Shown here in pieces: positions 16,712 to 46,000 of a DNA stretch of 64,000 nucleotides (the first letter of the stretch is position 1; every line of letters begins with the position of its first letter). The DNA comes from Haliotis rufescens (taxonomy: Eukaryota): NCBI RefSeq assembly GCF_023055435.1, contig NW_025963909.1, positions 1 through 64,000 of the forward strand, given 5' to 3'. The notes below the pieces were generated by a model, which did no database searches, was not told the origin of the DNA, and saw nothing but the letters and a program-made list of their open reading frames with translations. The position numbers and the translations under genes are program-made.

Positions 16712-17554
16712 AACCATAACAAATGGCAATAATCATGGTATGGGATGACTGACAACAGGAGCTGTGCGATGCCAATGTCATCGGATAGAACAAACATTTG
16801 CCAACAAATAAAGAAGATATTGGTGAGTTGTGATTGAAATTTACTGACAAAACAGCAATGTAATACAGATATTGTTTTTCACCTTAGACAATACGTTAAA
16901 TAGGTTTGGAGCTGCAGGATTAAGTAAACGAGTTATGTTTCATGTTTCATGTGAAAATGTTCCTTCAGGTCTCTACTTGACATGACACGTGAAACAGATC
17001 AGTAGCGGGTTTAACCGCCACGTGCCCGGATGCCCTCATGCCTCCAGTCAGACGTTGGATCTATTGACAATCTCATTAAAATTAGACCTTAGTTCTCGCT
17101 ACCGCTAAACAAAGATCTGAGGACATCCCAGTAGAGGTCACGTCAGAACGACCTTTCATTCGACCAATCAGAGCGTCGCTTACCAGATCATGAGAGTCAC
17201 AGTTGGAATGTTATTTCTAATCATGCATCTTCGAAAACTTTAACACGGGGTGTTCCGAACGATAGTTACGGGTTTAACGACTGAATCCATACAATCTAGA
17301 CCATCTATTAGCCATTCCAGAAAGTTCTTTTGTTCAGGTTTCAAATTTTTAATCGAGAATTTGTCAAAATATGTTTCGAAGCGTTGTCACCAATTTGAAA
17401 ATAGTGCCATAAAGCACGAGAAAGCTGCCTTCTGATTGGTCATTCCATTAGTCGGACAAAGTTCGCGCAAGGTCGGTCTGACGTGTCCCGTAATGGGATG
17501 TTTAGCTGTTTCAGTTTATTTACCGTTCAAGTCAGTAGTCAGTAAATAACCGCT

Positions 17555-17910
17555 AGTAGAGAGAAAGTAATACCTTCCGGACAAAAGCATTCCTGTGGAG
17601 CATAGAATTTCCAACAATTCCTGTGGAGCATGGAATTTCCAACAAAAGCATTCCTGTGGAGCATAGAATTTCCAACAAAAGCATTCCTGTTACCTTCTGG
17701 ACAAAAGCAGTCCTGTTGAGCGTGGAATTTCCAACAAAGCATTCCTGTGGAGCGAGGAAATTCCAACAAAAGCAGTCCTGTGGAGCATGGAATTTCCAAC
17801 AAAAGCATTGTGGAGCAGCATTCCTATGGAGCGTAGAGTAAAGAAACAAACAAAAGCATTCTTGTGAAGCATACCACAGAGGCCAGTCAATACCTTTCAC
17901 ACAATAGAAG
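17555..17910 (+). repeat. Left TIR of the Maverick, built from ~33-bp tandem units
   Basis: Reverse complement of 28134-28392; unit aaaagcattcctgtggagcatggaatttccaac. Confidence 0.92.
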
Positions 17911-18139
17911 TTAACAATAACGTTCCATGATCAACGTTTCATCCACTCATAGAATGTATGGTGCGATGAATACTCAGTAACCAATGAAACGCTAAAGGAA
18001 GTCAAAGTACACCAATGAAATTCAACTTTATTGTTATAAGTTAAGCAGTGTTTAACTGTTGAAGCTTTCATTCGAGCTTAAACAGCGATCTTGTCAACAA
18101 GACGAAATCTTCACGCCAGTATACATCTTGAATCTGATC

Positions 18140-18649
18140 ATGGGAACCCGAACAACTGACAAGTATGTATTTTTTTACACCAGAACTTTAGTGTTTAGTC
18201 AACATTTTTCTACTGAGATTGTTATCGAAGGAATAGCATTTAACTGTGCTGAGCAGTATAACATGTATAAAAAAGCTTGTATGTTCAGAGATTGGGAAAC
18301 TGCGCATAAGATTTTAAAGTGTGTTTCTGCCACCGAACAAAAACGTTTAGGTAGAAGTGTGAGATGTTTTAATCAACGCCAATGGGATGCTGTGAGTTCC
18401 AATGTGGTGTATGCAGCATCTTCAGCTAAATCCACACAGTCTGTTTTTCTGAAGAAACAACTGTTAGACACTTTTCCCAAGATCTTGTTAGAAGCGAGTC
18501 CGTATGATCGTGCGTGGGGTGTGGGTCTATCACTGCATGACCCTAATATTCTTAATCCATCTAAATGGAAAGGCAGTTATAGACTTGGTCAGATCTTAAT
18601 GATGGTTAGAAATGAAATAATGAACACAGAGCCAAGTGAAAACTTATGA
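18140..18649 (+). CDS. NADAR/YbiA-family protein (element cargo)
   Basis: FSQHF...FNCAEQY.MYKKA.MF.D, EQKRLGRSVR.F, LLEASPYDRAWGVG and LGQILMMVR are typical NADAR motifs; first ATG at 18140. Confidence 0.88.
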   Translation: MGTRTTDKYVFFYTRTLVFSQHFSTEIVIEGIAFNCAEQYNMYKKACMFRDWETAHKILKCVSATEQKRLGRSVRCFNQRQWDAVSSNVVYAASSAKSTQSVFLKKQLLDTFPKILLEASPYDRAWGVGLSLHDPNILNPSKWKGSYRLGQILMMVRNEIMNTEPSENL

Positions 18650-18683
18650 CTTTAAATGTGTTACAGTGATGTAACTTGCTATT

Positions 18684-18971
18684 TTGAACAGAGGCAAGAA
18701 AACTACATTCTACTCGTGGAAGCAGGTCATGCGGATGCCACACACTCTAAATGACCCAGTCATAACAAGATCGCCTGAGTGGTTTCAAGATAGGGAAGAA
18801 TGCGCGAAAGATGCAAAGAGAAAATTTAAAGACGAATGCAAGACAACAAAGAGAGTCATTATCAAGAAGATTAAAACCTTACCACTCAACGCTGATGAAG
18901 TGGATATGGCTACAAAACTGAAACATGCAAAGGATCTTCTCACGTTGAGTTACTCTTTAGAAGTGATTTAA
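18684..18971 (+). CDS. Hypothetical small basic protein (element)
   Basis: Co-oriented open frame in the gene-dense element; no family recognised; start uncertain. Confidence 0.4.
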   Translation: MNRGKKTTFYSWKQVMRMPHTLNDPVITRSPEWFQDREECAKDAKRKFKDECKTTKRVIIKKIKTLPLNADEVDMATKLKHAKDLLTLSYSLEVI

Positions 18972-18986
18972 ACAATCAGCCAACTC

Positions 18987-19307
18987 GTGTGTGAAATGTG
19001 TATTCCTTGTCTGTTTAATGAAGAAGGTGATCCAATCTTTTTGGGAGAACATTCTTGTCGCATGACGGAGCAGGAGCAGGTGGATAAATACTTCAACGCG
19101 GCACTTGAGGATGCGGACAATGAACTGGTAATAGGAAAATGGATGAAACTTGTGACTGATGATCCAGATCTGTGCACAATGCCTGCTTTCCATTTAGTAC
19201 CTTACCAGTGTAAGGACTATCGTGACAATACATTCAAATCACCCGAATGGGTGAATGGTTTGAAGCAATGCGTTGTAAAAATGTTGAAGTTGCAAAAACG
19301 CTTGTAG
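18987..19307 (+). CDS. Hypothetical protein with CxxC...HxC motif (element)
   Basis: MCIPC...EHSC...DKYFNAA; followed by AATAAA near 19385; start uncertain. Confidence 0.45.
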   Translation: MCEMCIPCLFNEEGDPIFLGEHSCRMTEQEQVDKYFNAALEDADNELVIGKWMKLVTDDPDLCTMPAFHLVPYQCKDYRDNTFKSPEWVNGLKQCVVKMLKLQKRL

Positions 19308-19489
19308 ACTGTTTCCATGTCATATTATTCTATCAGTACCAAATTAAATGTGTGTGTGTGTACTTTAGCAATGTCCATACTATGAATAAAACATAAATTA
19401 TGCTTACATCTTTGTTTGTCTTCTTTTGATAGTTATCAAATGGTTGTTCTTTAATAGGTGTCTGTTGTCAGAGCTTCTCTCATTTCAAC

Positions 19490-20623
19490 ATGAAGCCACA
19501 ACAGAGAAAGGTGGTAACAAAGAAACAGGAGAAGATGTTAGAAAGTTACTATTTTAACCCACTTGAACCGGGGGCTTTTTATGGTCCTGAGAAACTTCAT
19601 AGCGTTCTGAAATTAGCTCGTCAACCAGATCTCAGACTGAGCACTGTGAAACGTTTTCTGAACAAACAGGACGCCTACAGTTTACACAGGCCACCCAAAC
19701 AGAGATTCAAAAGGCTGAGAGTTCGGGTATATTCTATAAATGAAATGTTTGATGTAGATTTGACCGACATGACTCGTTACAGCAAGGAGAATAATGGTGT
19801 GCGTTATTTACTGGTGGCTATTGACCTGAGTAGGTTTGCTTTCGCCCTGCCTTTAACAAATAAGGGACCAGAGACAGTATTGAAAGCTTTCAAAGAAATA
19901 ATTCAGGAACGAAATCCAATGAAAGTGCGTGTGGATGGTGGTTCAGAGTTTAAAGGAGTATTTAAAGTTTTTTTAGAAAAACACAATAGCACTCTGACTG
20001 TTGCACATAACGAAAACATCAAAAGTAATTATGTGGAACGATTCAACAGAACACTGAAATCACTTATTACGTGTTACTTGACCCATAATAACACCAAGTA
20101 TTATTTAGATGCACTGCCCAAGTTGATGGACAATTATAACAACACCTTACATTCTTCTTTGCCCAACCTTTCTCCAGTTCAAGTCAAGAAGAAGAATGAA
20201 CTGAAAGTATGGGAACATTTGTATGTGAAGCCGTTGTTACTTAAAAAAAGCTCCAAACACAACAGGTCAAAGTCATTTGTATTTAAAGTAGGGGATCTTG
20301 TTCGCATTCCATACATCCGGAGACCTTCCATTAAGGAACTTGATCTGAAGTGGACTCAGGAGCTGTTTAAGGTGGCTAGGCGATACAAGAGACAAGAGAT
20401 AGCACAGTATAAGATCAAAGACTTTCACGATAAACTGATAGAAGGTACGTTTTATGCCAACGAGCTACAAAAGGTGGAGAAAAAGGAAAATGTCTTGTGG
20501 CAGGTAGAGAAGATTTTAAAGAGAAAACGTGTGAAAGGGAAGACCTACCTGTTAGTGAGGTGGTTGGGCTGGCCGAGTTCCTTCGATTCTTATGCGGAGG
20601 AAAGTGAACTGAAAGATATCTGA
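19490..20623 (+). CDS. Maverick retroviral-like (rve) integrase with C-terminal chromodomain
   Basis: Catalytic D (FDVDLTDM), D (VRVDGGSEF), E (NYVERFNRTLK); GTFYANELQKV; chromodomain WQVEKILKRK...LLVRWLGWPSSFDSY. Confidence 0.95.
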   Translation: MKPQQRKVVTKKQEKMLESYYFNPLEPGAFYGPEKLHSVLKLARQPDLRLSTVKRFLNKQDAYSLHRPPKQRFKRLRVRVYSINEMFDVDLTDMTRYSKENNGVRYLLVAIDLSRFAFALPLTNKGPETVLKAFKEIIQERNPMKVRVDGGSEFKGVFKVFLEKHNSTLTVAHNENIKSNYVERFNRTLKSLITCYLTHNNTKYYLDALPKLMDNYNNTLHSSLPNLSPVQVKKKNELKVWEHLYVKPLLLKKSSKHNRSKSFVFKVGDLVRIPYIRRPSIKELDLKWTQELFKVARRYKRQEIAQYKIKDFHDKLIEGTFYANELQKVEKKENVLWQVEKILKRKRVKGKTYLLVRWLGWPSSFDSYAEESELKDI

Positions 20624-21037
20624 TTGAAAGGTACATATTTCTCAAAAGCTCAGACTCCAAACAATCTTATTTTAACGAGAATACGCCTTATCATTTTCGT
20701 GTCAAACTAAATCAAAGGTTGAATTTTGATGGATTCTGGGTTGTGTCTTTAACGGAGATTAATTTTGGTAAACTTGAATGATCCATATGTGGACGTGTTA
20801 TGCAATCTGTGTGATAGTTCTTTGGCAGGTGAACAGCAGTTGCCTTTATTGAGACGGCTTGATCTCAGACAAGGTCCTTACTATAGCTTTGCCCATGAAT
20901 ACAATATTCCGATTAAAGTCAAAGAATCTCCACACATAGAGGTGCGTATAAAGGCCAGTAACGGCATGTCACCCTCATTTCTAAAGGAAGTGACATATGT
21001 GACACTGCACTTGAGACGGTATCCCTTCGTTGATTAA
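20623..21037 (+). pseudogene. Minor capsid (penton) protein, short; lost start codon and frameshift
   Basis: Frame 1 from 20623 reads IERYIFLKSSDSKQSYFNENTPYHFRVKLNQRLNFDGFWVVSLTEI (Polinton mCP N-terminus); frame 2 continues LCNLCDSSLAGEQQLPLLRR...VTLHLRR (mCP C-terminus). Confidence 0.8.
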
Positions 21038-21039
21038 CC

Positions 21040-21390
21040 ATGGAGTCCACACCTTTGTATGTTCCCGATTATGTCAAATGGACCCACTATTTCAAGAAAC
21101 ACATGAAAGGAACATCTGCCTTAGTGAATGGTAAACCACAGGTGAAAGTGATCCTGACACGACTTCAAGTGAAGACCGAAGAACCCAAGATCAAACTGGA
21201 AGTGACATCAGAGATGCAGAATATTGTTGAGAGAGCCAATGCCAAAGAAAAGCGATGGAAATCTTTAAAACGAGCTGCAGGTGATCGAATCACCACTTCA
21301 AAGAAGATCCGTCAGACAGATAACATTCCATCCAAGACCGCTAAGGTTCTCCAGTGTACCCCTGTTCGAGAAAACGACGTTTTCAGTTAA
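21040..21390 (+). CDS. Small basic hypothetical protein (possible virion core protein)
   Basis: Tightly packed between mCP and MCP; K/R-rich. Confidence 0.55.
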   Translation: MESTPLYVPDYVKWTHYFKKHMKGTSALVNGKPQVKVILTRLQVKTEEPKIKLEVTSEMQNIVERANAKEKRWKSLKRAAGDRITTSKKIRQTDNIPSKTAKVLQCTPVRENDVFS

Positions 21391-21392
21391 TC

Positions 21393-22694
21393 ATGTCACT
21401 ATTGAATGATAAAGACTTTGAGGAACTGATACCGCCCTCTCTCAATCTGTTTATTTTACCACCATACCAGACCAGCATCCATCAACATTATTTTGATGAA
21501 GTGCGACCACTCAGCCAAATCAATGATTCTTCACCGTTGGAATTTCAAGTAATGAATGCTGGAAGTGATTACATTGACCTGAACCGTACCCGCCTACATG
21601 TGAAGCTCAAGGTGAAACATGCAGATGGCACTGATCTTGATGACAAGGAACATATTGTCCCTGTCAACTTGTTTCTGCAGGCCCTCTTTTCCCAGGTGTC
21701 AGTGTACCTGCAGAATCAGTTGGTATCTTCTACAAACAACCATTATGCTTACAAGAGCATGATGAAAACTCTACTCAACTATGGAACAGAAGCTAAAACT
21801 TCACAGCTGTCATCTCAACTCTTCTACAAAGATGTGTCTGAATCCAACAATGATGTGGAATCGACTGATCCCTACACTGGTCTCAATACAGGAGTGCAAT
21901 CTCGTGGCGGTTTCATTAATACTAGTAAAGTCTTGACCATGTCGGGGCCATTGTATGAAGATATCTTTCACATGAACAGACATTTGGTCAATGGAGTGGA
22001 TTTGACAGGGAAGCTGTACCGCTCCTCGCCCCAGTTCTGTTTGATGAGTGGCAAAACAGGTCAAGGTTACAAGGTGGAAATTCTGGATACCTACCTGAAG
22101 GTATGTAAACTGAAAGTCAATCCAGCTCTTATTTTGGCACACAACACCTTGTTTCAAGACAGCAATGCTTTGTATCCTTACACCAAAAGTGAGGTCAAGG
22201 TGACAAGCATCCCCACCACTCAACTGACACATACCATTGACAATCTGTCGAATCCTATTGCTAATCGTTACATCGTAGGCTTTGTACTCAGCAACAGCTT
22301 GAATGGATCTTACACTGGTAACCCCTACAACTTCCAATCTAGTATGGTGAAAAACATCAGCCTGTACATCAATGGTGCCAGTGTCCCCGGACAACCCATG
22401 CAGGCAGATGACGTTGAGTCCTTTGTGCAGATGTTCGATGGGATGTGTCTGTGGAAAGAAAATACAAGAAACGGAATAACTCGGGGCGACTTTTTGCTCG
22501 GGAGTGCCCTGTACGTCTTCGACATTGATAAAGTATGCAGTGAATCCGACTATCTGAATCTGTTGAAATCCGGTAGCACCCGACTAGAAATCGAGTTCAA
22601 ATACGCCCTCACCGAAACACTCAGTTGTGTTGTTCTGAGTGAAAGAAATTCCCTCATCGAAATTGACAAGACCAGGAACGTGTTTGTGAAGTAA
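21393..22694 (+). CDS. Major capsid protein (double jelly-roll, Polinton PY-type)
   Basis: SLNLFILPPYQTSI...EVRPLSQINDSSPLEF...DYIDLNRTRLHVKLKV, LFSQVSVYL, YAYKSMMKTLLNY, NPYNFQ, LEIEFKYAL, IEIDKTRNV; 433 aa from ATG 21393. Confidence 0.93.
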   Translation: MSLLNDKDFEELIPPSLNLFILPPYQTSIHQHYFDEVRPLSQINDSSPLEFQVMNAGSDYIDLNRTRLHVKLKVKHADGTDLDDKEHIVPVNLFLQALFSQVSVYLQNQLVSSTNNHYAYKSMMKTLLNYGTEAKTSQLSSQLFYKDVSESNNDVESTDPYTGLNTGVQSRGGFINTSKVLTMSGPLYEDIFHMNRHLVNGVDLTGKLYRSSPQFCLMSGKTGQGYKVEILDTYLKVCKLKVNPALILAHNTLFQDSNALYPYTKSEVKVTSIPTTQLTHTIDNLSNPIANRYIVGFVLSNSLNGSYTGNPYNFQSSMVKNISLYINGASVPGQPMQADDVESFVQMFDGMCLWKENTRNGITRGDFLLGSALYVFDIDKVCSESDYLNLLKSGSTRLEIEFKYALTETLSCVVLSERNSLIEIDKTRNVFVK

Positions 22695-22699
22695 AAAAC

Positions 22700-23194
22700 A
22701 TGAAAGCCTCTGACCTTGCATGTGCTATTCAAAGCTACTCCATCTTAAAGTACCATGTCTTAGGTGTGTTTGCCAAAGATACTTTACCTGTGCTAACTAG
22801 AGTCATGCTTGCACGTGGAGTGGGTCTCATTGTCAATACTGAACCATCTGGAAGACCGGGTCGTCCCTGGGTGGCTATGTACTTCAAAGGAAATACAGGG
22901 GAACTGTTTGACAGTCTGGGTGAGCCAGTGAATTCCGTTTTTGACTTGTACTTAAAAACATATGTCAATCAATACCAGCACAACAGAAGACAGTTACAGT
23001 CCTCATCATCCAACCTTTGTGGTCATTATTGTTTATATTATTTGTTGTATAAATGCAAAACAGAACTTACCCTTCAAACCCTTGTGCAGATATTTGATGT
23101 GCAAGTCCGTTTTAACAATGATGAGCATGTGTCAAATTGTATCTGTAATTATTTTAGATATTGTTTGTTATCTTGTCATACCTGTGTCATGTAA
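22700..23194 (+). CDS. Adenain-like cysteine protease; catalytic His apparently replaced by Pro
   Basis: IVNTEPSGRPGRPWVAMY, FDSLG, QLQ...NLCGHYCLYYL. Confidence 0.88.
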   Translation: MKASDLACAIQSYSILKYHVLGVFAKDTLPVLTRVMLARGVGLIVNTEPSGRPGRPWVAMYFKGNTGELFDSLGEPVNSVFDLYLKTYVNQYQHNRRQLQSSSSNLCGHYCLYYLLYKCKTELTLQTLVQIFDVQVRFNNDEHVSNCICNYFRYCLLSCHTCVM

Positions 23195-23326
23195 CATAAT
23201 ACTGTACTTGTGTAACCCATTAACAAAATGAAATAAAAAAATTAGTGTAGTCATTCGAGTTTTTCTATAAATATAAGTAACTCAGCTGTATTGTCACAGT
23301 TGAATTATTGTGCTCAGGGTGAGATC

Positions 23327-23992
23327 ATGGAACGTAAGTGTCTCTTACCAATACAAACACCTACCGCCATATCTGTGATTGGTGGATCTTCCTCAGGGAA
23401 AACAGTTTGGGTGAAAAGGTTGTTAGAGCAAGCTAATCTGATGTTTGACAAACCTCCCAACCTTATTGTGTACTGCTATGCCGTATGGCAAGACATCTAC
23501 AGTGACATGCAGCAAAACATTTCTAACATTCTTTTTATGGATTCCCTTCCAACTGAGAATGATTTGAAAATGTGGTCTGAGCAATCTGAAAAGAACATGG
23601 TGTTGGTCATGGATGACATGATGATGGATATATGTAAAAGTCCACTGATGTTAAATCTCTACACTATATTGTCTCATCATTGGGGAATCAGTGTTATAAA
23701 TATTCAACAGTCTGCTTATCCTAAGGGGGATTGTAACCGAACTATTTCCTTGAATACACACTACTTCATTTTGCTATCTAACCCACGTTCTGCACATGAA
23801 TATAAAATCTTGGCATCTCAAATATTTCCAGGACAAGCCAAATATTTTACTGAATCATTTCGTGACGCAGTGGAGGGAAAGAAATTTCAATATTTAATGA
23901 TTGACGTATCACCCTATTCCGATCCTCAGTATGGGCGTCTGCGCAGTGGTGTCTTTCCAGATGAAGTATGTATTGTGTACCAACCCAAATAA
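23327..23992 (+). CDS. A32/FtsK-like genome-packaging ATPase
   Basis: Walker A GGSSSGKT, Walker B LVMDDMM, SHHWGISVINIQQ, RTISLNTHY, YLMID. Confidence 0.93.
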   Translation: MERKCLLPIQTPTAISVIGGSSSGKTVWVKRLLEQANLMFDKPPNLIVYCYAVWQDIYSDMQQNISNILFMDSLPTENDLKMWSEQSEKNMVLVMDDMMMDICKSPLMLNLYTILSHHWGISVINIQQSAYPKGDCNRTISLNTHYFILLSNPRSAHEYKILASQIFPGQAKYFTESFRDAVEGKKFQYLMIDVSPYSDPQYGRLRSGVFPDEVCIVYQPK

Positions 23993-24067
23993 AAGCTACT
24001 GCTGAAAGTTATACCCACCAGTTGCCCGTCTTACCAATGAACACATCAGTTGCTTAATGAGGTCATC

Positions 24068-24379
24068 ATGGATGTTTGCGGACGATTTGAAGATATTGCT
24101 AACGATTGTTCATTGATTTCAACCAATGCTGAAGTGTATGGGGATAGCTTTTGTGAGAGATTAAAGTCCTTCGCCAGTTGGCCCGTGCAAATGAAACAGT
24201 CTCTGAAGACTATGGCACAAGCAGGATTCATTTACACGGGTCAATCAGATAAAGTCTACTGTTTCATGTGTCGATTGCGTGTACATAAATGGATGCCAGA
24301 AGATGAACCACTAACTGAACATTTCAGGTTATCACCTCAGTGTAGTTACATAAACGTGATAGCTTCTAATACCGAATGA
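24068..24379 (+). CDS. Single-BIR inhibitor-of-apoptosis-like protein (element cargo)
   Basis: ERLKSFASWP...MAQAGFIYTG..DKVYCFMC...W...DEPLTEHFRLSPQC matches the BIR CX2CX16HX6C pattern; no RING. Confidence 0.9.
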   Translation: MDVCGRFEDIANDCSLISTNAEVYGDSFCERLKSFASWPVQMKQSLKTMAQAGFIYTGQSDKVYCFMCRLRVHKWMPEDEPLTEHFRLSPQCSYINVIASNTE

Positions 24380-24486
24380 GAGACATCGGCTATTGTGTAT
24401 GAGGAATATTAGGGTCTAAGCATACATATATAAAAGTCACAATAACCTAGTTGGATCATTTCACATCGTGATCTCTTCACATCAAT

Positions 24487-24945
24487 ATGGGTGATTTACT
24501 GGAAAAACATCTGTCTTTTCTTCAGACACTACTGCAGGCTAATGTGAAGCAGAGGAAAGCTTTACTTCAATATGTGTCATGTGAACAAATGCATGCTATT
24601 AATAGCATGATGTTAAACACTTTGAAAGGGAATATTCCGCTCTCACTGATGGATAAAACTCGCTTGCACCGTCATAGGTTTCACATTAGAACATTGGCTG
24701 CCAAAGAAGGTTTTCCCAATCGGATTAAAAAGGAGGTGTTGATAAGACATCATTCGATCTTGCCTATTTGCATTGCTGCACTGTTAGATTACCTACATCA
24801 TGAGCAGACCTATGGTTCTCCTGAACAGGAACACATACCAACGCCTGATAGACAACCAGGAAAAGGAGAAGACAGCGACTCAGGAACAACAACAACAACA
24901 GATAATGACTCCGGATCGGGAGACGAGTCCTCTGAGACTGAATGA
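24487..24945 (+). CDS. Conserved Polinton-type small helical basic protein
   Basis: HLSFLQTL...KQRKALL...QMHAI...LNTLKGNIPLS resembles the small ORF typical of animal Mavericks; TATA tatataaaag near 24427. Confidence 0.65.
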   Translation: MGDLLEKHLSFLQTLLQANVKQRKALLQYVSCEQMHAINSMMLNTLKGNIPLSLMDKTRLHRHRFHIRTLAAKEGFPNRIKKEVLIRHHSILPICIAALLDYLHHEQTYGSPEQEHIPTPDRQPGKGEDSDSGTTTTTDNDSGSGDESSETE

Positions 24946-25327
24946 GACCCCTGAAAAAATCACCCATGATGAAGCACAGATTAAAGCGAATACGAACTTG
25001 ATTCTGGATCTACTTCTTAAGGATGTGTCATTAACTAAAACGATTGGCAAACTCACCAAACTATGGTACTTTATCAGGGATCAGATCAGAAACGCTCACT
25101 TCAGACTGAATGATCAGTTAGAAATTGTGTTAGATAATGAGAATGTGTAGATCGGAACTAACGTTATTGACCTCATTCGTTTTACTGTGATGCATCGTGG
25201 GGCTGTTCCTACAGGCTACCGTGACTTTCTCAAACTTTTAAAAATGCTCCATGTACCAAAGCGGCTTTTGTAGAAGCCAGATGCAAAGAAAAAGAACGAC
25301 AAAAGAAAGAAGGCAAAATCATCTTGA
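24800..25327 (+). pseudogene. Conserved Polinton-type ORF interrupted by premature stops
   Basis: Starts MSRPMVLL...YQRL; the frame continues past the TAG at 25148 as IGTNVIDLIRFTV...PTGYRDFLKLLKMLHVPKRLL, completing an (L/W)ND..EIV.D....G.N..DL motif seen in Maverick ORFs. Confidence 0.6.
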
Positions 25328-26044
25328 TATCTAAAACGACAAGCACAACATGGTGTGCCCGGTGCTAATACTACTGCAAAATTAAGAAAACTACAGTCTT
25401 TCTAACTGTACATGCACATTGAATTCATGACATGTATTCTATGTAACTTTCTGATTGTAAAGCAATAAAATAATGCTAACACATGCGTCTTTAGTTATTA
25501 CTATCTTCCATGTTCATGAGGACTCTGAGCTGCAGCTCAAGTCTTTCTTTTTTGTCATCACAGAAGAAATGTCTATGCATATAATCCGAGTCATTGTAAC
25601 GCACAGTGTGCTGGTCCTGAAACTCTAGCCCAAGGCTTACCCTCTGTTCTTGGCTTTTTCCAAGATGGTATGAAGGGGCAGCTCATTCACTGCACGATCA
25701 AAGTATTGAGTAATACACTCGTCACAAACTATACATTTTGGAGCTCTATAGAAATATAAGTTCAAACTTAAGTGCAAACAGCTGCACACAATGAACATGA
25801 GTGGTGTGGCTGCTATTCAAAACAGTTTCAGATTGCTTCAAGACAGATGTATCAAGCGGGTGTATAATAGGGTAGTACTAAGAACTGCTGAATCACCTTG
25901 ACCGAGTACACAAGCTATACAATATTTTTAAGAAAATGTTTACCATGGGATGGTACTGAAAACGTGACACTTTAAAAGCACAGGTGTTCCATTATGAAAG
26001 ACTACATAAAAGGGATACACTTAATGAAAGAGCCGTATAGAGAG

Positions 26045-26388
26045 GTGGTGAGGTGAGGTGAAATTGGGTTTAACGTCGCGTCCAAGATTATTGCACTTAT
26101 ATAGCGACGTGCATGCACGTGTGTGTGTGTGTGTGTATATGTGTGGCTGCTTGTACTAGTCCGGACTGATGCCGATTTATAGTGCTAGCTCACTGAGATA
26201 CCGTCCTGCAGTTTAACATGAATACCCCACTCAGACACAGTATAGTGACTCCGAGCCAACCAGTCCTTGTTTTAGCCCCTTAATGTCGAGCGCCAGACAG
26301 GGTAACAACAAGTACCATCTTTTAACGTCTTTTGGTATGACGCGGCCGGGGATCAAACCCCGGACCTTCCGCTCTCCGGGCGGACGCT
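26045..26388 (-). mobile_element. SINE family A inserted in the Maverick
   Basis: 13-bp TSD gccgtatagagag at 26032-26044 and 26389-26401; body matches the other family A copies. Confidence 0.88.
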
Positions 26389-26758
26389 GCCGTATAGAGA
26401 GTGTGTTACTAAAAACTCGATATTGATTAAAAATGAGAGAGTAACAAGTGGTGGCTTTGTGGATTCGTTCTTGTTAAGTCAATAGGGCTGCTGTCTGGTC
26501 AAACAGAAATCTAGAAAACGTACTAATTAAAAATCGTATGCCATCACTCACAAGCAAAGTATAGTGAGTCAGAAGTATATGTATACACCATGTGTATGCG
26601 AGGTGTAACAGTTGATACCATTTGAAAAGAACAAGGCAACATAATGAAGTAGTTTTTCCCGTGAGAAAGTGACAACATGCTGAATCACCTTTCTTGCAGA
26701 GTGAATATAAATATAACGTGTTAGTGGTTCATTTCGGGAGAAGACACTTTACTCGAAA

Positions 26759-26974
26759 ATGTCTGACAATCACATCCACACTACGTTTGAGTGGGCTGCT
26801 GGCCATTGGCTGTCCATCAACTTGTTCCGTGATGATGCTTGGGTGCATCTTTCAAACTACAACAGCAAAAAGGAAAGGAAACCCATTTCCTTGAAAAGCA
26901 GTGTATTTAGAAAACTGACTGAAGATCGCGAACAAATTCTATCTGCTTTGGAGGACTATTTCAAGTGCTTTGGC

Positions 26975-27004
<30 letters not shown>
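26759..27004 (+). CDS. PC4/Sub1-like ssDNA-binding protein (putative)
   Basis: F....HWLSINLFRDDAWVHL..Y....KPISL...VF..L....EQI..AL resembles the PC4 core; TATA at ~26707; 3' end runs into (TAT)n. Confidence 0.5.
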
Positions 27005-27005
<1 letters not shown>

Positions 27006-28133
27006 TTATCCTTCCTTTTCAGCCATCGTGGGGTACAATGCTCAGTGAGACGAGAAAGGAAAAGACTGCTTCGGCGTAGATTGCATCGCGGGTATTATCG
27101 ACACATACGCGAGCATCTCACTGTGTTTTCTAAAATAAAAGCATATTTTTAATCAGAATGTGTGTATGTTTTATGTTTCAATTCGCAGTTATTCGCTCTC
27201 ATGGTCTATCAATGTGATATGAGCCACTAGTGTGATACGAGTTACCTCCCTTGGATCACGAGGGCAGGCCGCTCGCTTCACCCGTCTTTCGGTGTATGTA
27301 TTCATGCCAGCCAGCATTCATTGTTTCTTCACTGTCAATAGTGTATTACCTCCCTTACACCGGTAAGCCGTTCGTCTGCAGGTATCCGGTGTAGCCGAAC
27401 GGTTTGACCGTTGTTTTTCCAGCTAAGTTTACTACATGATGATATATAAGAAGAAATTAAATCCAGCCATGTACAATTGATGGAATAAATATGATTAAAC
27501 CAAATATGAACTGAGCGAATGGTTAATTCAAACGGAATATATGGAGGAATGATTAATGAAACAGTGTTGTACAGTCATAAGGTAAGTTCACTTATTTTCA
27601 TTATTACTATTACATCAATTAGTTTGTGTCATAAAGCAGAAAACATACGAATTACACATCTGCAGATGGGTATAATGTATACTTTCTACTCAAGTTCTAA
27701 CATAATGGCGAACACAAGTAACAGCGATATTATCTAGTTGGTGATCGCCTGAAAGCAACATTTAACCCTTAATGTTACGTTAGCACACTGAAACAGATAA
27801 AAAGTTAAAGAGTGATAGAAATGTTAATAGATAAAGGTTAATAGATATAGGTGAATGAATACCGCTATAAACAATAACATAATATTTTAACACTTAGTGA
27901 AACGTGAATGAAGTAGAGAAAAATGTTTATAAATGAATTGACATCGGTGAAAGGGTTAACAGGTTCAGCGGCTAAAACCCACACACGAATAGATTTACTC
28001 TTGCGTGTAAAGCGTGGGTGAGAGAGCTACCCCTAGTGTATTGATACTAATGTGCGGTGACATAGTTACATGTTTGAACAGAGCGAATATATACAGAGCC
28101 AGCCTTACTGCTAGTCTCCTTTAGCAAAATTTG

Positions 28134-28392
28134 CTTCTATTGTGTGAAAGGTATTGACTGGCCTCTGTGGTATGCTCCACAAGAATGCTTTTGTTTGTTT
28201 CTTTACTCTAACGCTCCACAGGAATGCTTTTGTTTGTTTCTTTACTCTACGCTCCACAGAAATGCTTTTGTTAGAAAAATTCCATGCTCCACAGGAATTT
28301 GTTGAAATTCTATGCTCCACAGGAATGCTTTTGTTGGTGCTCCACGCTCCACAGGAATGCTTTTGTCCGGAAGGTATTACTTTCTCTCTACT
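28134..28392 (-). repeat. Right TIR of the Maverick
   Basis: Reverse complement of the left TIR with a different number of internal tandem units. Confidence 0.92.
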
Positions 28393-29072
28393 ACCGCTCT
28401 CAATGCGTCATATTACCACTCTCGAAAAAAAGGGCAATCGTGGTGTATAAGATAACACTGAAAAAGTAGTCAACTTGACATGCATGTCTTTAGATGCTTG
28501 CTACAACAGCTTTATTAATCACAGCGAAGTAGATTTCGCTTGACAAAATATTATCGCTCCGCTCTTATATGTAAATGTACCTGGGAATCTATGCACTGCA
28601 TAGACATTTGCATTTATCCTAAATGACTGGCTTTCCTTTGTTTCGAAGTTCTAAACAACGAAAGTAGCTCTTCTTGTCTCGCCTCTATCTATAAAGAGAA
28701 GCCAACTCATCAACTTCAGCGAATTCAGCCTGGTTCCCTGGGTATGTAGAACAAGCGCAGCATACCCAGGGACCAGGCTGGAGTGAATTTTGAGTGATTA
28801 TTTTACGGCGCTTCACGTCTTTCGCACGTCGATGTTAATGGCGTAAACATAGATAATATTGCTAAAACAGTCAACACTGTCGTCGTGGTTTTCAGATTGA
28901 ACCCATGTCAAGGAAATAGAGTTGTGAATACATGAGATTTCAGGTTATAATTGTTTAATGTCGTTACAGCACGGAAAATAACATTTATGGCAGTGACCTT
29001 CACCCCTTAACATATCCGGTTGTAAGAAAGACGTGTGAGTTTTAAAAACATTTACATTTGTTTTAATTCATA

Positions 29073-43048: not shown

Positions 43049-46000
43049 TATTAGGTTGCGCCTGATTTTATTCAACACTTACTATCCATGCTCAGTCGGA
43101 ATTGACAATTGTTGGTTATCTTGGTCATTGATAATGGAGGAGTAAGAGATAGGAAATTAAAATACGTTCTCCAATTTTCCTGCAGCTGTGTAAAGGGGTA
43201 GGTGGAGCGAGAACGATTGCTTGTGAGTCATTTGGAAGGGCGTGGTTTTAGCACAGGTCTGTTTAAACCCCAGTTAAGCTTCTACATTCACGATTTTACA
43301 TTTCATAATCAAGCTTCACTGCAAAATTGTCCAATACAGTACAGCGATTAGGTCTGTTTACGAGTATTTGAAAGAAATAATATCTCTCAATTGTCCAAAA
43401 CAGAACACCAGTTAGGCCTGTTTACGAGTATTTGATAGAAATAATATCTCTCGATGTCTTATTGTCCTATAAACATACTTACCCAAGATTTAACATAAAA
43501 ACATACATTTTGACATTATCTTTACTGTATTAGTTATCAACCACTAAGACAAGCTAATTATCATCAAGTTCTTTACCATTAAGCTAAAAATCCACATACA
43601 GAAACAAATACGCACCTCACTGGCTGATGAATAGTATTGAAATACTCTGATAGTAGATGAAGCAGTACTTCCCAATATTATGACAACGTCAGTGAACGCC
43701 AATTAGCTGCCTTCCGCTGTGTCAACAGGGAGCGTGATGTCGTGTCCTCCAGTCTCTAACGTGTTGACTTAGTACCTAGCGTTGCCTTCTTCTAAAAGGG
43801 CTCTAGTCATATAAATAAATACTTTCAGTCACACCCACATATGGGGTGACCTGGTCGCCAATACATGTTCAAATGTTTGTGAGACAGCAGCGATAGTCGA
43901 CATGGGGTGGGGGGGTGGGGGTGGGGTGTGGGGGTGGGGGGTGTGGGGGGTTGGGGGGGGGGTGTGGTGGTGGTATTGCAATGGGACTATCTTATGTTTG
44001 TTTTAATATTGACTTAGTTTACATTACACCCGTAATGAGGTCATGGATTTTACAACCTCGTGTTGTATGTTCGATGACTTTCTATGACTGGGCTCTTTTC
44101 TACACAAGTGAGTAAATGGCTGAAGGTGCTAAGCTTGCTGCGCGAACCAACAATGGAACCAGTTTACGTGGTTCTAATACTCACAGTATTTTATTGAACA
44201 CGTGCGCGCAATAACAATAATTATTTATGTCACATATAACGTTGTCGTCTATCGATATGGCACCTGATCCTGTGCACAGCGTGCCGGCAACAAATCGGGC
44301 GAAGTTACGTCGAAGGATTACATGGACCCGATAATAATGGTGTTTGCCTTTTGGATACATTAACGGATGGTCTACANNNNNNNNNNNNNNNNNNNNNNNN
44401 NNNNNNNNNNNNNNNNNNNNNNNNNNNNNNNNNNNNNNNNNNNNNNNNNNNNNNNNNNNNNNNNNNNNNNNNNNNNNNNNNNNNNNNNNNNNNNNNNNNN
44501 NNNNNNNNNNNNNNNNNNNNNNNNNNNNNNNNNNNNNNNNNNNNNNNNNNNNNNNNNNNNNNNNNNNNNNNNNNNNNNNNNNNNNNNNNTGCGCTAAGTT
44601 ATTGTGTGTGGGTGAGTGGTCACCCTGCTGTGTCATGGCGATTGTACTTTAAATAATTCAATCAAGAATTAATTTCGTGGTCAGGCTGGGTTGATTGCAG
44701 GGGGTCGTACCCCGATGGAGCCTAACGGCGCTCATGTTGCACACTGGATTGTCTGGTCCAGACTCGATTATTTATAGGCCGATGTCATGTAACTGGAATA
44801 CTGCTGAGTGCGGCGTTAAACAACAAACATCTTTTGAAAGTACCTTGGATATTTCAAAATCCTTTAAACAAATATTCTTTTTTTTACTCTCGTGTATTGC
44901 AATCACGGCTTGTCAGCTTAATGTGAAGGGAAAGCCAGAAGGGATGCATGTATCAGATGTTTACCACTTTGGTGAAACCCACGAGCACGGGTATGGTGCT
45001 GACAAACCTGGGAAGCTAATCGGNNNNNNNNNNNNNNNNNNNNNNNNNNNNNNNNNNNNNNNNNNNNNNNNNNNNNNNNNNNNNNNNNNNNNNNNNNNNN
45101 NNNNNNNNNNNNNNNNNNNNNNNNNNNNNNNNNNNNNNNNNNNNNNNNNNNNNNNNNNNNNNNNNNNNNNNNNNNNNNNNNNNNNNNNNNNNNNNNNNNN
45201 NNNNNNNNNNNNNNNNNNNNNNNNNNNNNNNNNNNNNNNNNNNNNNNNNNNNNNNNNNNNNNNNNNNNNNNNNNNNNNNNNNNNNNNNNNNNNNNNNNNN
45301 NNNNNNNNNNNNNNNNNNNNNNNNNNNNNNNNNNNNNNNNNNNNNNNNNNNNNNNNNNNNNNNNNNNNNNNNNNNNNNNNNNNNNNNNNNNNNNNNNNNN
45401 NNNNNNNNNNNNNNNNNNNNNNNNNNNNNNNNNNNNNNNNNNNNNNNNNNNNNNNNNNNNNNNNNNNNNNNNNNNNNNNNNNNNNNNNNNNNNNNNNNNN
45501 NNNNNNNNNNNNNNNNNNNNNNNNNNNNNNNNNNNNNNNNNNNNNNNNNNNNNNNNNNNNNNNNNNNNNNNNNNNNNNNNNNNNNNNNNNNNNNNNNNNN
45601 NNNNNNNNNNNNNNNNNNNNNNNNNNNNNNNNNNNNNNNNNNNNNNNNNNNNNNNNNNNNNNNNNNNNNNNNNNNNNNNNNNNNNNNNNNNNNNNNNNNN
45701 NNNNNNNNNNNNNNNNNNNNNNNNNAACGGACGCAAACCTGGGAAGCTAATCGGNNNNNNNNNNNNNNNNNNNNNNNNNNNNNNNNNNNNNNNNNNNNNN
45801 NNNNNNNNNNNNNNNNNNNNNNNNNNNNNNNNNNNNNNNNNNNNNNNNNNNNNNNNNNNNNNNNNNNNNNNNNNNNNNNNNNNNNNNNNNNNNNNNNNNN
45901 NNNNNNNNNNNNNNNNNNNNNNNNNNNNNNNNNNNNNNNNNNNNNNNNNNNNNNNNNNNNNNNNNNNNNNNNNNNNNNAACGGACGCAAACCTGGGAAGC

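What the first reader, a model, noticed from the sequence alone, without database searches (positions are those of the whole stretch)
17555..28392. Compact Maverick/Polinton-type virus with both ends intact, a full virion module and integrase, but no DNA polymerase
Seen: both TIRs, AG...CT ends and a perfect 6-bp TSD define a 10.8-kb insertion containing INT, mCP, MCP, protease and ATPase. No ORF or gap is long enough for a pPolB; the largest unassigned spaces are about 1 kb. Established: canonical Mavericks are ~15-20 kb or more and encode pPolB. Inference: this is either a polymerase-less, helper-dependent (satellite or virophage-like) lineage that keeps its own capsid and integrase, or a copy that lost pPolB by deletion after insertion.
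Basis: partly seen in the sequence, partly recalled or inferred. Interest (0 to 1): 0.9.

Follow-up and report, generated by a model that had tools for sequence, protein, structure and literature searches.

The report
Polymerase-deleted Maverick copied to two sites
This is a decaying, shortened copy of an ordinary 19-kb Maverick virus-like element that lost its DNA polymerase in one 5.1-kb deletion; the same deleted form sits at a second chromosomal site, likely because intact relatives copied it there.

Summary
In detail: 17555-28392 has AG...CT ends, the 6-bp duplication ACCGCT, integrase, capsid, protease and ATPase genes, and no polymerase. Sister copies with the same ends are 18-22 kb and carry a 1388-aa pPolB in a 5096-bp segment missing here at 25725|25726. 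The window copy is decaying: private changes in four core genes are neutral (6 synonymous, 32 not), the protease has lost its catalytic His, and the minor capsid gene is broken.

One twist survives. The identical junction, the same SINE-like insertion and five private substitutions spread over 8.9 kb also occur at a second site with unrelated flanks and another duplication (ATTAAC). So the deleted form was copied once more. Most likely it was replicated and integrated with a helper's polymerase (0.6). In-place gap repair from one copy into another is not excluded (0.33), because the ends of the two copies come from different sub-lineages. The junction also stands in 4 of 4 public runs laid, under four organism labels. 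polB-less polintons that carry TE cargo and stay mobile are already reported in insects (preprint). Modest interest.

The parts
17549..17554 (.). left target-site duplication ACCGCT
17555..17910 (+). left terminal inverted repeat with internal tandem unit of about 33 bp; AGTAGAGAG-type end
18140..18649 (+). NADAR-domain accessory gene, open
   Evidence: Pfam PF08719 E 1e-37
18729..19307 (+). unassigned ORF (192 aa in intact sisters), interrupted by a stop at codon 81
19490..20623 (+). retroviral-type integrase with C-terminal chromodomain, open
   Evidence: Chromo E 6e-7; PHROG transposase E 2e-10; DDE motifs
20623..21037 (+). likely minor capsid (penton) gene; start codon lost and 14-bp frameshift
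   Evidence: for the sister's protein the Atlas gives viral clusters at 0.97 and PF21507 V18-19 at 0.94 in 19% of members, a lead only
21040..21390 (+). unassigned 116-aa ORF, open
21393..22694 (+). double jelly-roll major capsid protein, 433 aa, open
   Evidence: model pLDDT 83; Foldseek mavirus and PBCV-1 MCP
22700..23194 (+). adenain-like protease, open frame, catalytic His replaced
   Evidence: assignment rests on motifs and gene order, no Pfam hit
23327..23992 (+). A32-type packaging ATPase, open
   Evidence: Pfam Pox_A32 E 4e-5; Walker motifs
24068..24379 (+). BIR (inhibitor of apoptosis) domain gene, open
   Evidence: Pfam PF00653 E 1e-22
24487..25400 (+). two overlapping unassigned ORFs (151 and 200 aa in sisters), with frameshifts and three stops
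25725..25726 (.). junction J1: 5096 bp missing, including the whole 1388-aa pPolB and the 5' part of a 243-aa ORF; 1 base of microhomology
26032..26401 (-). SINE-like host repeat (26045-26388) between 13-bp duplications GCCGTATAGAGAG; shared only with the other J1 copies in G000
   Evidence: 'SINE' rests on dispersed copies, the duplication and a tRNA-like head recognised from memory
26759..27004 (+). 3'-truncated unassigned ORF (154 aa in a sister)
27458..27459 (.). junction J2: older loss of several kb of accessory DNA, shared with two copies that keep pPolB sequence
28134..28392 (-). right terminal inverted repeat
28393..28398 (.). right target-site duplication ACCGCT

Best explanation
This is a Maverick/Polinton copy that lacks its polymerase through one 5096-bp deletion, and the same deleted form lies at a second site, likely because it was replicated and integrated with a polymerase supplied by intact family members. 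Shown: the parent family is 18-22 kb with pPolB; an older sub-lineage lost accessory DNA (J2); one member then lost pPolB (J1) and gained a SINE-like insertion; that form stands at site A (window, and the same site on C1) and site B (C583, itself doubled in a 24-kb tandem duplication), each with its own 6-bp duplication; site A has since decayed neutrally. Inferred: intact ends are enough in cis for protein-primed replication and integration, so the short genome behaved for a short while like a defective-interfering genome and exchanged its ends with a co-replicating relative.
For: Spacer between the J1 flanks in 18 copies: 5089-5097 bp in 6, 5169 in 1, 0 in 4 (window, C1, two on C583), other sizes in 4, not found in 3. 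A and B flanks (3 kb each side) share only short dispersed repeats; the duplications are ACCGCT and ATTAAC. The SINE-like insertion has the same left junction in the 4 J1 copies and is absent from the 12 other copies that cover the site. Five substitutions are private to all four J1 copies (18872, 19798, 21215, 25806, 27772; 8759 columns). Copy against copy, A-B pairs share 6-7 such sites, against 0-2 in 15 control pairs. A and B share only 5-8 private changes but have 35 and 39 of their own, so the copying came early, when this sub-lineage was spreading. Other copies are mosaic too (C423, C445c). One public contig (X12) crosses J1 and the SINE site without the SINE, hinting at a third form.
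Against: Only two independent sites in G000 (4 matches). The ends of A differ from those of B on both sides and beyond the inverted repeats (terminal positions 7 and 54; 17942, 17948, 18013; 27996, 28153). A free genome needs two crossovers for that; in-place gap repair needs one event. Six interior or near-terminal sites pair A or B with the more distant sub-lineages, which could be short ectopic conversion tracts. In the interior tree the branch uniting A and B is short, with support 86. C445c and C368, which have no junction in common, share 9 private sites, so shared sites show kinship, not the route. The X12 contig is a single low-depth assembly contig.
Confidence: 0.6

Rival explanations
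1. Same deleted derivative, but it never moved on its own: a full-length Maverick already sitting at one site had its interior overwritten by ectopic gap repair using the deleted copy at the other site as template, keeping its own ends, flanks and target duplication.
For: One event explains shared interior (18872-27772, J1, SINE, J2) together with discordant ends on both sides. Possible short conversion tracts elsewhere. Replacement of one element by an ectopic copy during gap repair is known for P elements (recalled, no call).
Against: It needs a tract of about 9 kb replacing about 14 kb between different contigs. Mosaicism is common among copies of this family, so swapped ends need no special event. 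The SINE-less J1 contig in run X12 suggests more than two forms.
Confidence: 0.33
2. A stable polymerase-less, helper-dependent lineage that keeps its own capsid, protease, ATPase and integrase under selection.
For: Two insertion sites; four core frames are still open in the window copy while same-age copies carry 6-8 breaks in them; the junction stands in 4 of 4 runs laid.
Against: Changes private to site A in those four genes are 6 synonymous, 31 missense and 1 stop, against a neutral ratio of 1:3.7, whereas the branch to the young intact group has 23:6. The protease His and the minor capsid gene are lost. The element nests inside the pPolB-bearing family at 2.0-2.2% from three pPolB-bearing copies. 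Site B private changes (22 synonymous, 41 not) do not differ significantly from neutral branch by branch (p 0.07-0.2), though they lean synonymous.
Confidence: 0.05
3. Assembly artefact: the deletion or its two placements come from misassembly of repeats.
For: The window's contig repeats C1 flanks and may be a haplotig.
Against: The exact 5096-bp skip stands in 4 of 4 public runs; A and B differ by 2.3% with private breaks and different ends.
Confidence: 0.02

Closest known systems
Maverick/Polinton elements of animals (Barreat and Katzourakis 2021, PMC8097293; adintoviruses, PMC8502044)
   Same: 6-bp duplication, terminal inverted repeats, integrase, pPolB in the parent family, MCP, minor capsid, protease, ATPase; intact lineages under purifying selection beside defective fossils; IAP accessory genes are noted in adintoviruses (passages read).
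   Different: This copy has no pPolB. The vertebrate survey collected candidates by INT plus pPolB within 4-40 kb, so clean pPolB deletions like this one would not have been candidates.
polB-lacking polintons with TE cargo in insects (Pannagram preprint, 10.1101/2025.02.07.637071, section 'Transposons as polinton cargo' read in full)
   Same: Two or more related insertions lacking polB, carrying a host TE, beside similar complete polintons; the authors infer continued mobility and leave the mechanism open.
   Different: There the cargo is a LINE or an LTR element in insects. Here it is a short SINE-like repeat in a gastropod-type family, the deletion junction is base-resolved, the target duplications differ, and the ends are shown to be recombinant.
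Polinton-like viruses and Tlr1 elements (PMC5499653, passages read)
   Same: Virion module without an active pPolB.
   Different: They replace pPolB with an SF1 helicase fused to an inactivated polymerase and are old separate lineages. No replacement replicase exists here and the element is 96-98% identical to pPolB-bearing sisters.
Defective-interfering genomes of DNA viruses; non-autonomous DNA transposons (recalled; general definition of the latter in PMC6431247)
   Same: Ends kept, replication gene deleted, dependence on a helper in trans.
   Different: Interference or amplification is not shown: two sites only.

Membership tests
Maverick/Polinton | Terminal inverted repeats with AG...CT ends and 6-bp target duplication | tested here: met
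   13 copies with both ends define 11 different duplications
Maverick/Polinton | Retroviral-type DDE integrase | tested here: met
Maverick/Polinton | Protein-primed family B polymerase in this copy | tested here: not met
   0 of 1388 residues covered: it is a deletion derivative, not a complete Polinton
Maverick/Polinton | pPolB in the parent family | tested here: met
   1388-aa ORF with DFNSLY, KLMNNCVFGRF and MTDTDS motifs; Atlas 0.96 to clusters where 24-35% of members carry PF03175. Pfam DNA_pol_B_2 itself, PHROGs and PDB sequence search did not detect it
Maverick/Polinton | Double jelly-roll MCP | tested here: met
Maverick/Polinton | Packaging ATPase and adenain protease | tested here: met
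   ATPase by Pfam; protease by motifs and gene order only, catalytic His lost in this copy
Maverick/Polinton | Single jelly-roll minor capsid protein | tested here: inconclusive
   Atlas lead only; not folded; gene broken in this copy
Polinton-like virus / Tlr1 | SF1 helicase or other replicase in place of pPolB | tested here: not met
   no such ORF or Pfam hit among 13 window ORFs
Helper-dependent satellite lineage | Own structural genes under purifying selection after polymerase loss | tested here: not met
Non-autonomous Polinton derivative mobilised in trans | Same internal deletion at independent sites with different target duplications | tested here: met
   (two sites)
Non-autonomous Polinton derivative mobilised in trans | Second site made by integration of the deleted form, not by conversion | tested here: inconclusive
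   recombinant ends fit both routes
Adintovirus Alpha/Beta or pPolB1/pPolB2 class | Placement in a pPolB phylogeny | not tested
   no reference polymerases were fetched

The most novel reading that the evidence does not exclude
A defective-interfering Maverick genome: a polymerase-deleted, SINE-carrying genome that co-replicated with an intact helper, swapped both ends with it and integrated at several sites across related species, giving base-resolved fossil evidence for trans-complementation and recombination in a free replicating phase of animal Mavericks.
Probability: 0.3. Interest if true: 0.6.

Novelty: new member of a known kind. Interest (0 to 1): 0.33.

Why it matters
How animal Mavericks replicate and move is still inferred, and a recent preprint asks how polB-less polintons get mobilised. 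If the second site is a true integration, this case shows that the ends alone suffice in cis, that host SINEs can ride along, and that genomes swap ends with helpers. It also points to a blind spot: surveys that require integrase plus pPolB miss such copies. It is not a new virus lineage.

Tried and rejected
Pfam PF03175 scan of G000 scored 86 of 1124 candidates and listed no hit inside the sister copies fetched, so it could not answer the question. Pfam, PHROGs and PDB sequence searches did not name the polymerase. Single-sequence fold of the MCP failed (pLDDT 30); the alignment-based fold worked. The C1 copy first looked like a second insertion but has the window's flanks, so it was counted as the same site; the two C583 copies share flanks and count as one site. 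The idea that the window's open core frames reflect selection was tested and rejected. Rfam found nothing credible over 25700-28400 (one match far below threshold). No RNA holder is on record, so expression is untested; depth in the laid runs was not used. Seven MCPs from a related abalone species could not be tied to site A or B, and the DNA around them was not seen. Paper searches: one search gave 0 papers; one search gave 2; some searches gave listings with no description of this family's deleted form. Kapitonov and Jurka 2006 was not held, so earlier non-autonomous Polintons described there or in Repbase were not checked. No supplements were read. Earlier scan notes: none.
Full report
Observation. 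The element runs from 17555 to 28392, starts AGTAGAGAG, ends CTCTCTACT and is flanked by ACCGCT on both sides. The inverted repeats (about 356 and 259 bp) hold a tandem unit of about 33 bp. All genes lie on the + strand: NADAR, an unassigned ORF, integrase with chromodomain, a likely minor capsid gene, an unassigned ORF, MCP, protease, A32 ATPase, BIR, and further unassigned ORFs. The MCP folds with pLDDT 83 and matches mavirus, PBCV-1 and iridovirus capsids. Its closest named homologues are from abalones and another gastropod. There is no polymerase in the window.

Sister copies decide the first question. The terminal 28-mer occurs 18 times exactly in G000 and 30 times allowing variants. I examined 18 element stretches, the window included. 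Thirteen have both ends and define 11 different 6-bp duplications. Five near-identical copies of 19.0-21.8 kb, and a sixth cut by its contig start, have 5089-5097 bp between window positions 25725 and 25726. That segment holds a 1388-aa ORF on the opposite strand with family B motifs at 955, 1120 and 1219; the Atlas places it at 0.96 beside clusters in which 24-35% of members carry DNA_pol_B_2. Pfam, PHROGs and PDB sequence searches missed it, so the assignment rests on motifs, position and the Atlas. pPolB coverage in the 17 other stretches: complete in 6, 573-1375 residues in 7, none in 4 (C1, two on C583, and a 4.8-kb left-end fragment on C2). A second gap, J2 near 27458, removes accessory DNA and is shared with two copies that keep pPolB sequence, so it is older.

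The window copy is a fossil. The minor capsid gene has lost its start codon and has a 14-bp frameshift, three unassigned ORFs are interrupted, and the protease has Pro at the catalytic His position. Integrase, MCP, protease and ATPase frames are open, against 6-8 breaks in copies of the same age, so I tested for selection. Changes private to this site are 6 synonymous, 31 missense and 1 stop, where neutrality expects 1:3.7; the branch to the young intact group has 23:6. The family was selected while replicating; this copy is not.

The twist. The J1 junction occurs four times in G000: window, C1, and twice on C583. C1 has the window's flanks, so it is the same site (A). The two C583 copies lie in a 24-kb tandem duplication and are one site (B), with duplication ATTAAC and flanks unrelated to A. 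All four carry the same SINE-like insertion at 26045, which has a 13-bp duplication in the window and C1 (its right end is deleted at B) and is absent from the 12 other copies covering that site. Five substitutions from 18872 to 27772 are private to the four; copy against copy, A-B pairs share 6-7 such sites against 0-2 in 15 control pairs. A and B have 35 and 39 changes of their own, so they separated early. The interior tree joins them on a short branch with support 86. The exact 5096-bp skip stands in 4 of 4 public runs laid, from four organism labels and four studies; one of them may be the window's own species. One contig in run X12 crosses J1 and the insertion site without the SINE. These contigs do not give flanks, so they show age and spread, not further sites.

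Mechanism. Shown: order J2, then J1 and the SINE, then presence at two sites, then decay. Inferred: how the second site arose. B has the AGTAGATAG end type of its sub-lineage, while A has the AGTAGAGAG type and differs at sites on both sides beyond the repeats (17942, 17948, 18013, 27996). One of the two therefore has ends from another sub-lineage. Either the short genome co-replicated with a helper, swapped ends and integrated (0.6), or a resident element was overwritten in place by gap repair (0.33). For the first: other copies are mosaic as well, the copying coincides with the spread of this sub-lineage, and the SINE-less J1 contig hints at more forms. For the second: it needs one event, not two crossovers, and six scattered sites may be short conversion tracts. 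The data at hand do not separate them.

Comparison with print. Polintons by definition encode pPolB and integrase, and polymerase-less PLVs and Tlr1 carry an SF1 helicase instead (PMC5499653, passages); no such gene is here. Defective Mavericks beside intact ones are common, and that survey required INT plus pPolB (PMC8097293, passages). A 2025-26 preprint reports polB-lacking polintons with LINE or LTR cargo that appear to stay mobile in insects and leaves the mechanism open (10.1101/2025.02.07.637071, section 13 in full and passages). Passages were also read in PMC8502044, PMC3014272, PMC6431247, 10.1101/2024.01.15.575659 and 10.1101/2023.08.22.554363; the last describes pPolB exchange between Polintons. 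Six searches showed no description of this deleted form, but the founding 2006 paper was not held and subscription journals are not covered.

Verdict. A non-autonomous deletion derivative of an ordinary Maverick family: a new member of a known kind. The claim 'deletion derivative, not a distinct lineage' is about 0.95. Interest 0.33, carried by the two-site, recombinant-end evidence.

Noticed in passing
G000 C112:78738781-78758458, C357:2261825-2280810, C583:87510-107207, C68:5988765-6010561, C614:871158-892633: A younger burst of the same family: five copies 0.5-0.9% apart with different target duplications and a strongly synonymous stem branch (23:6); four have an uninterrupted pPolB frame. 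An MCP from a related abalone species is 99.1% identical to one of them.
   Followed up: partly
G000 C445:38501421-38515950, C445:55079267-55097473, C368:402752-421124, C594:30290293 onward: Other older copies carry their own, different deletions inside pPolB (spacers 3480, 4055 and 2542 bp instead of 5096), so loss in this region recurs.
   Followed up: partly
G000 C5:710923-721652: A 10.7-kb copy with both ends and its own duplication that keeps nearly all pPolB sequence but has lost most of the integrase and the virion module: the mirror image of the window copy.
   Followed up: no
G000: At least four more divergent MCP groups (about 70%, 52%, 31% and 28% identical) and many other pPolB frames: several Maverick families coexist in this genome.
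   Followed up: no
L021:2820-6986: The family's pPolB has N-terminal C2H2 zinc fingers and a weak endonuclease VII match near residue 658-695, below the Pfam cut-off.
   Followed up: no
window 17123-17501: 33-bp inverted repeat arms 313 bases apart just left of the element; on C1 about 1.9 kb of extra DNA lies at window 17501|17502.
   Followed up: no
window 1-29552 versus G000 C1:10283001-10363000: The window follows C1 at 97-99% up to 29552, then no match of 500 bases or more: haplotig, allele or segmental duplicate, unresolved.
   Followed up: partly
window 45001-46000: About 1 kb with GC 4% and strong A skew, a simple repeat or masked stretch.
   Followed up: no
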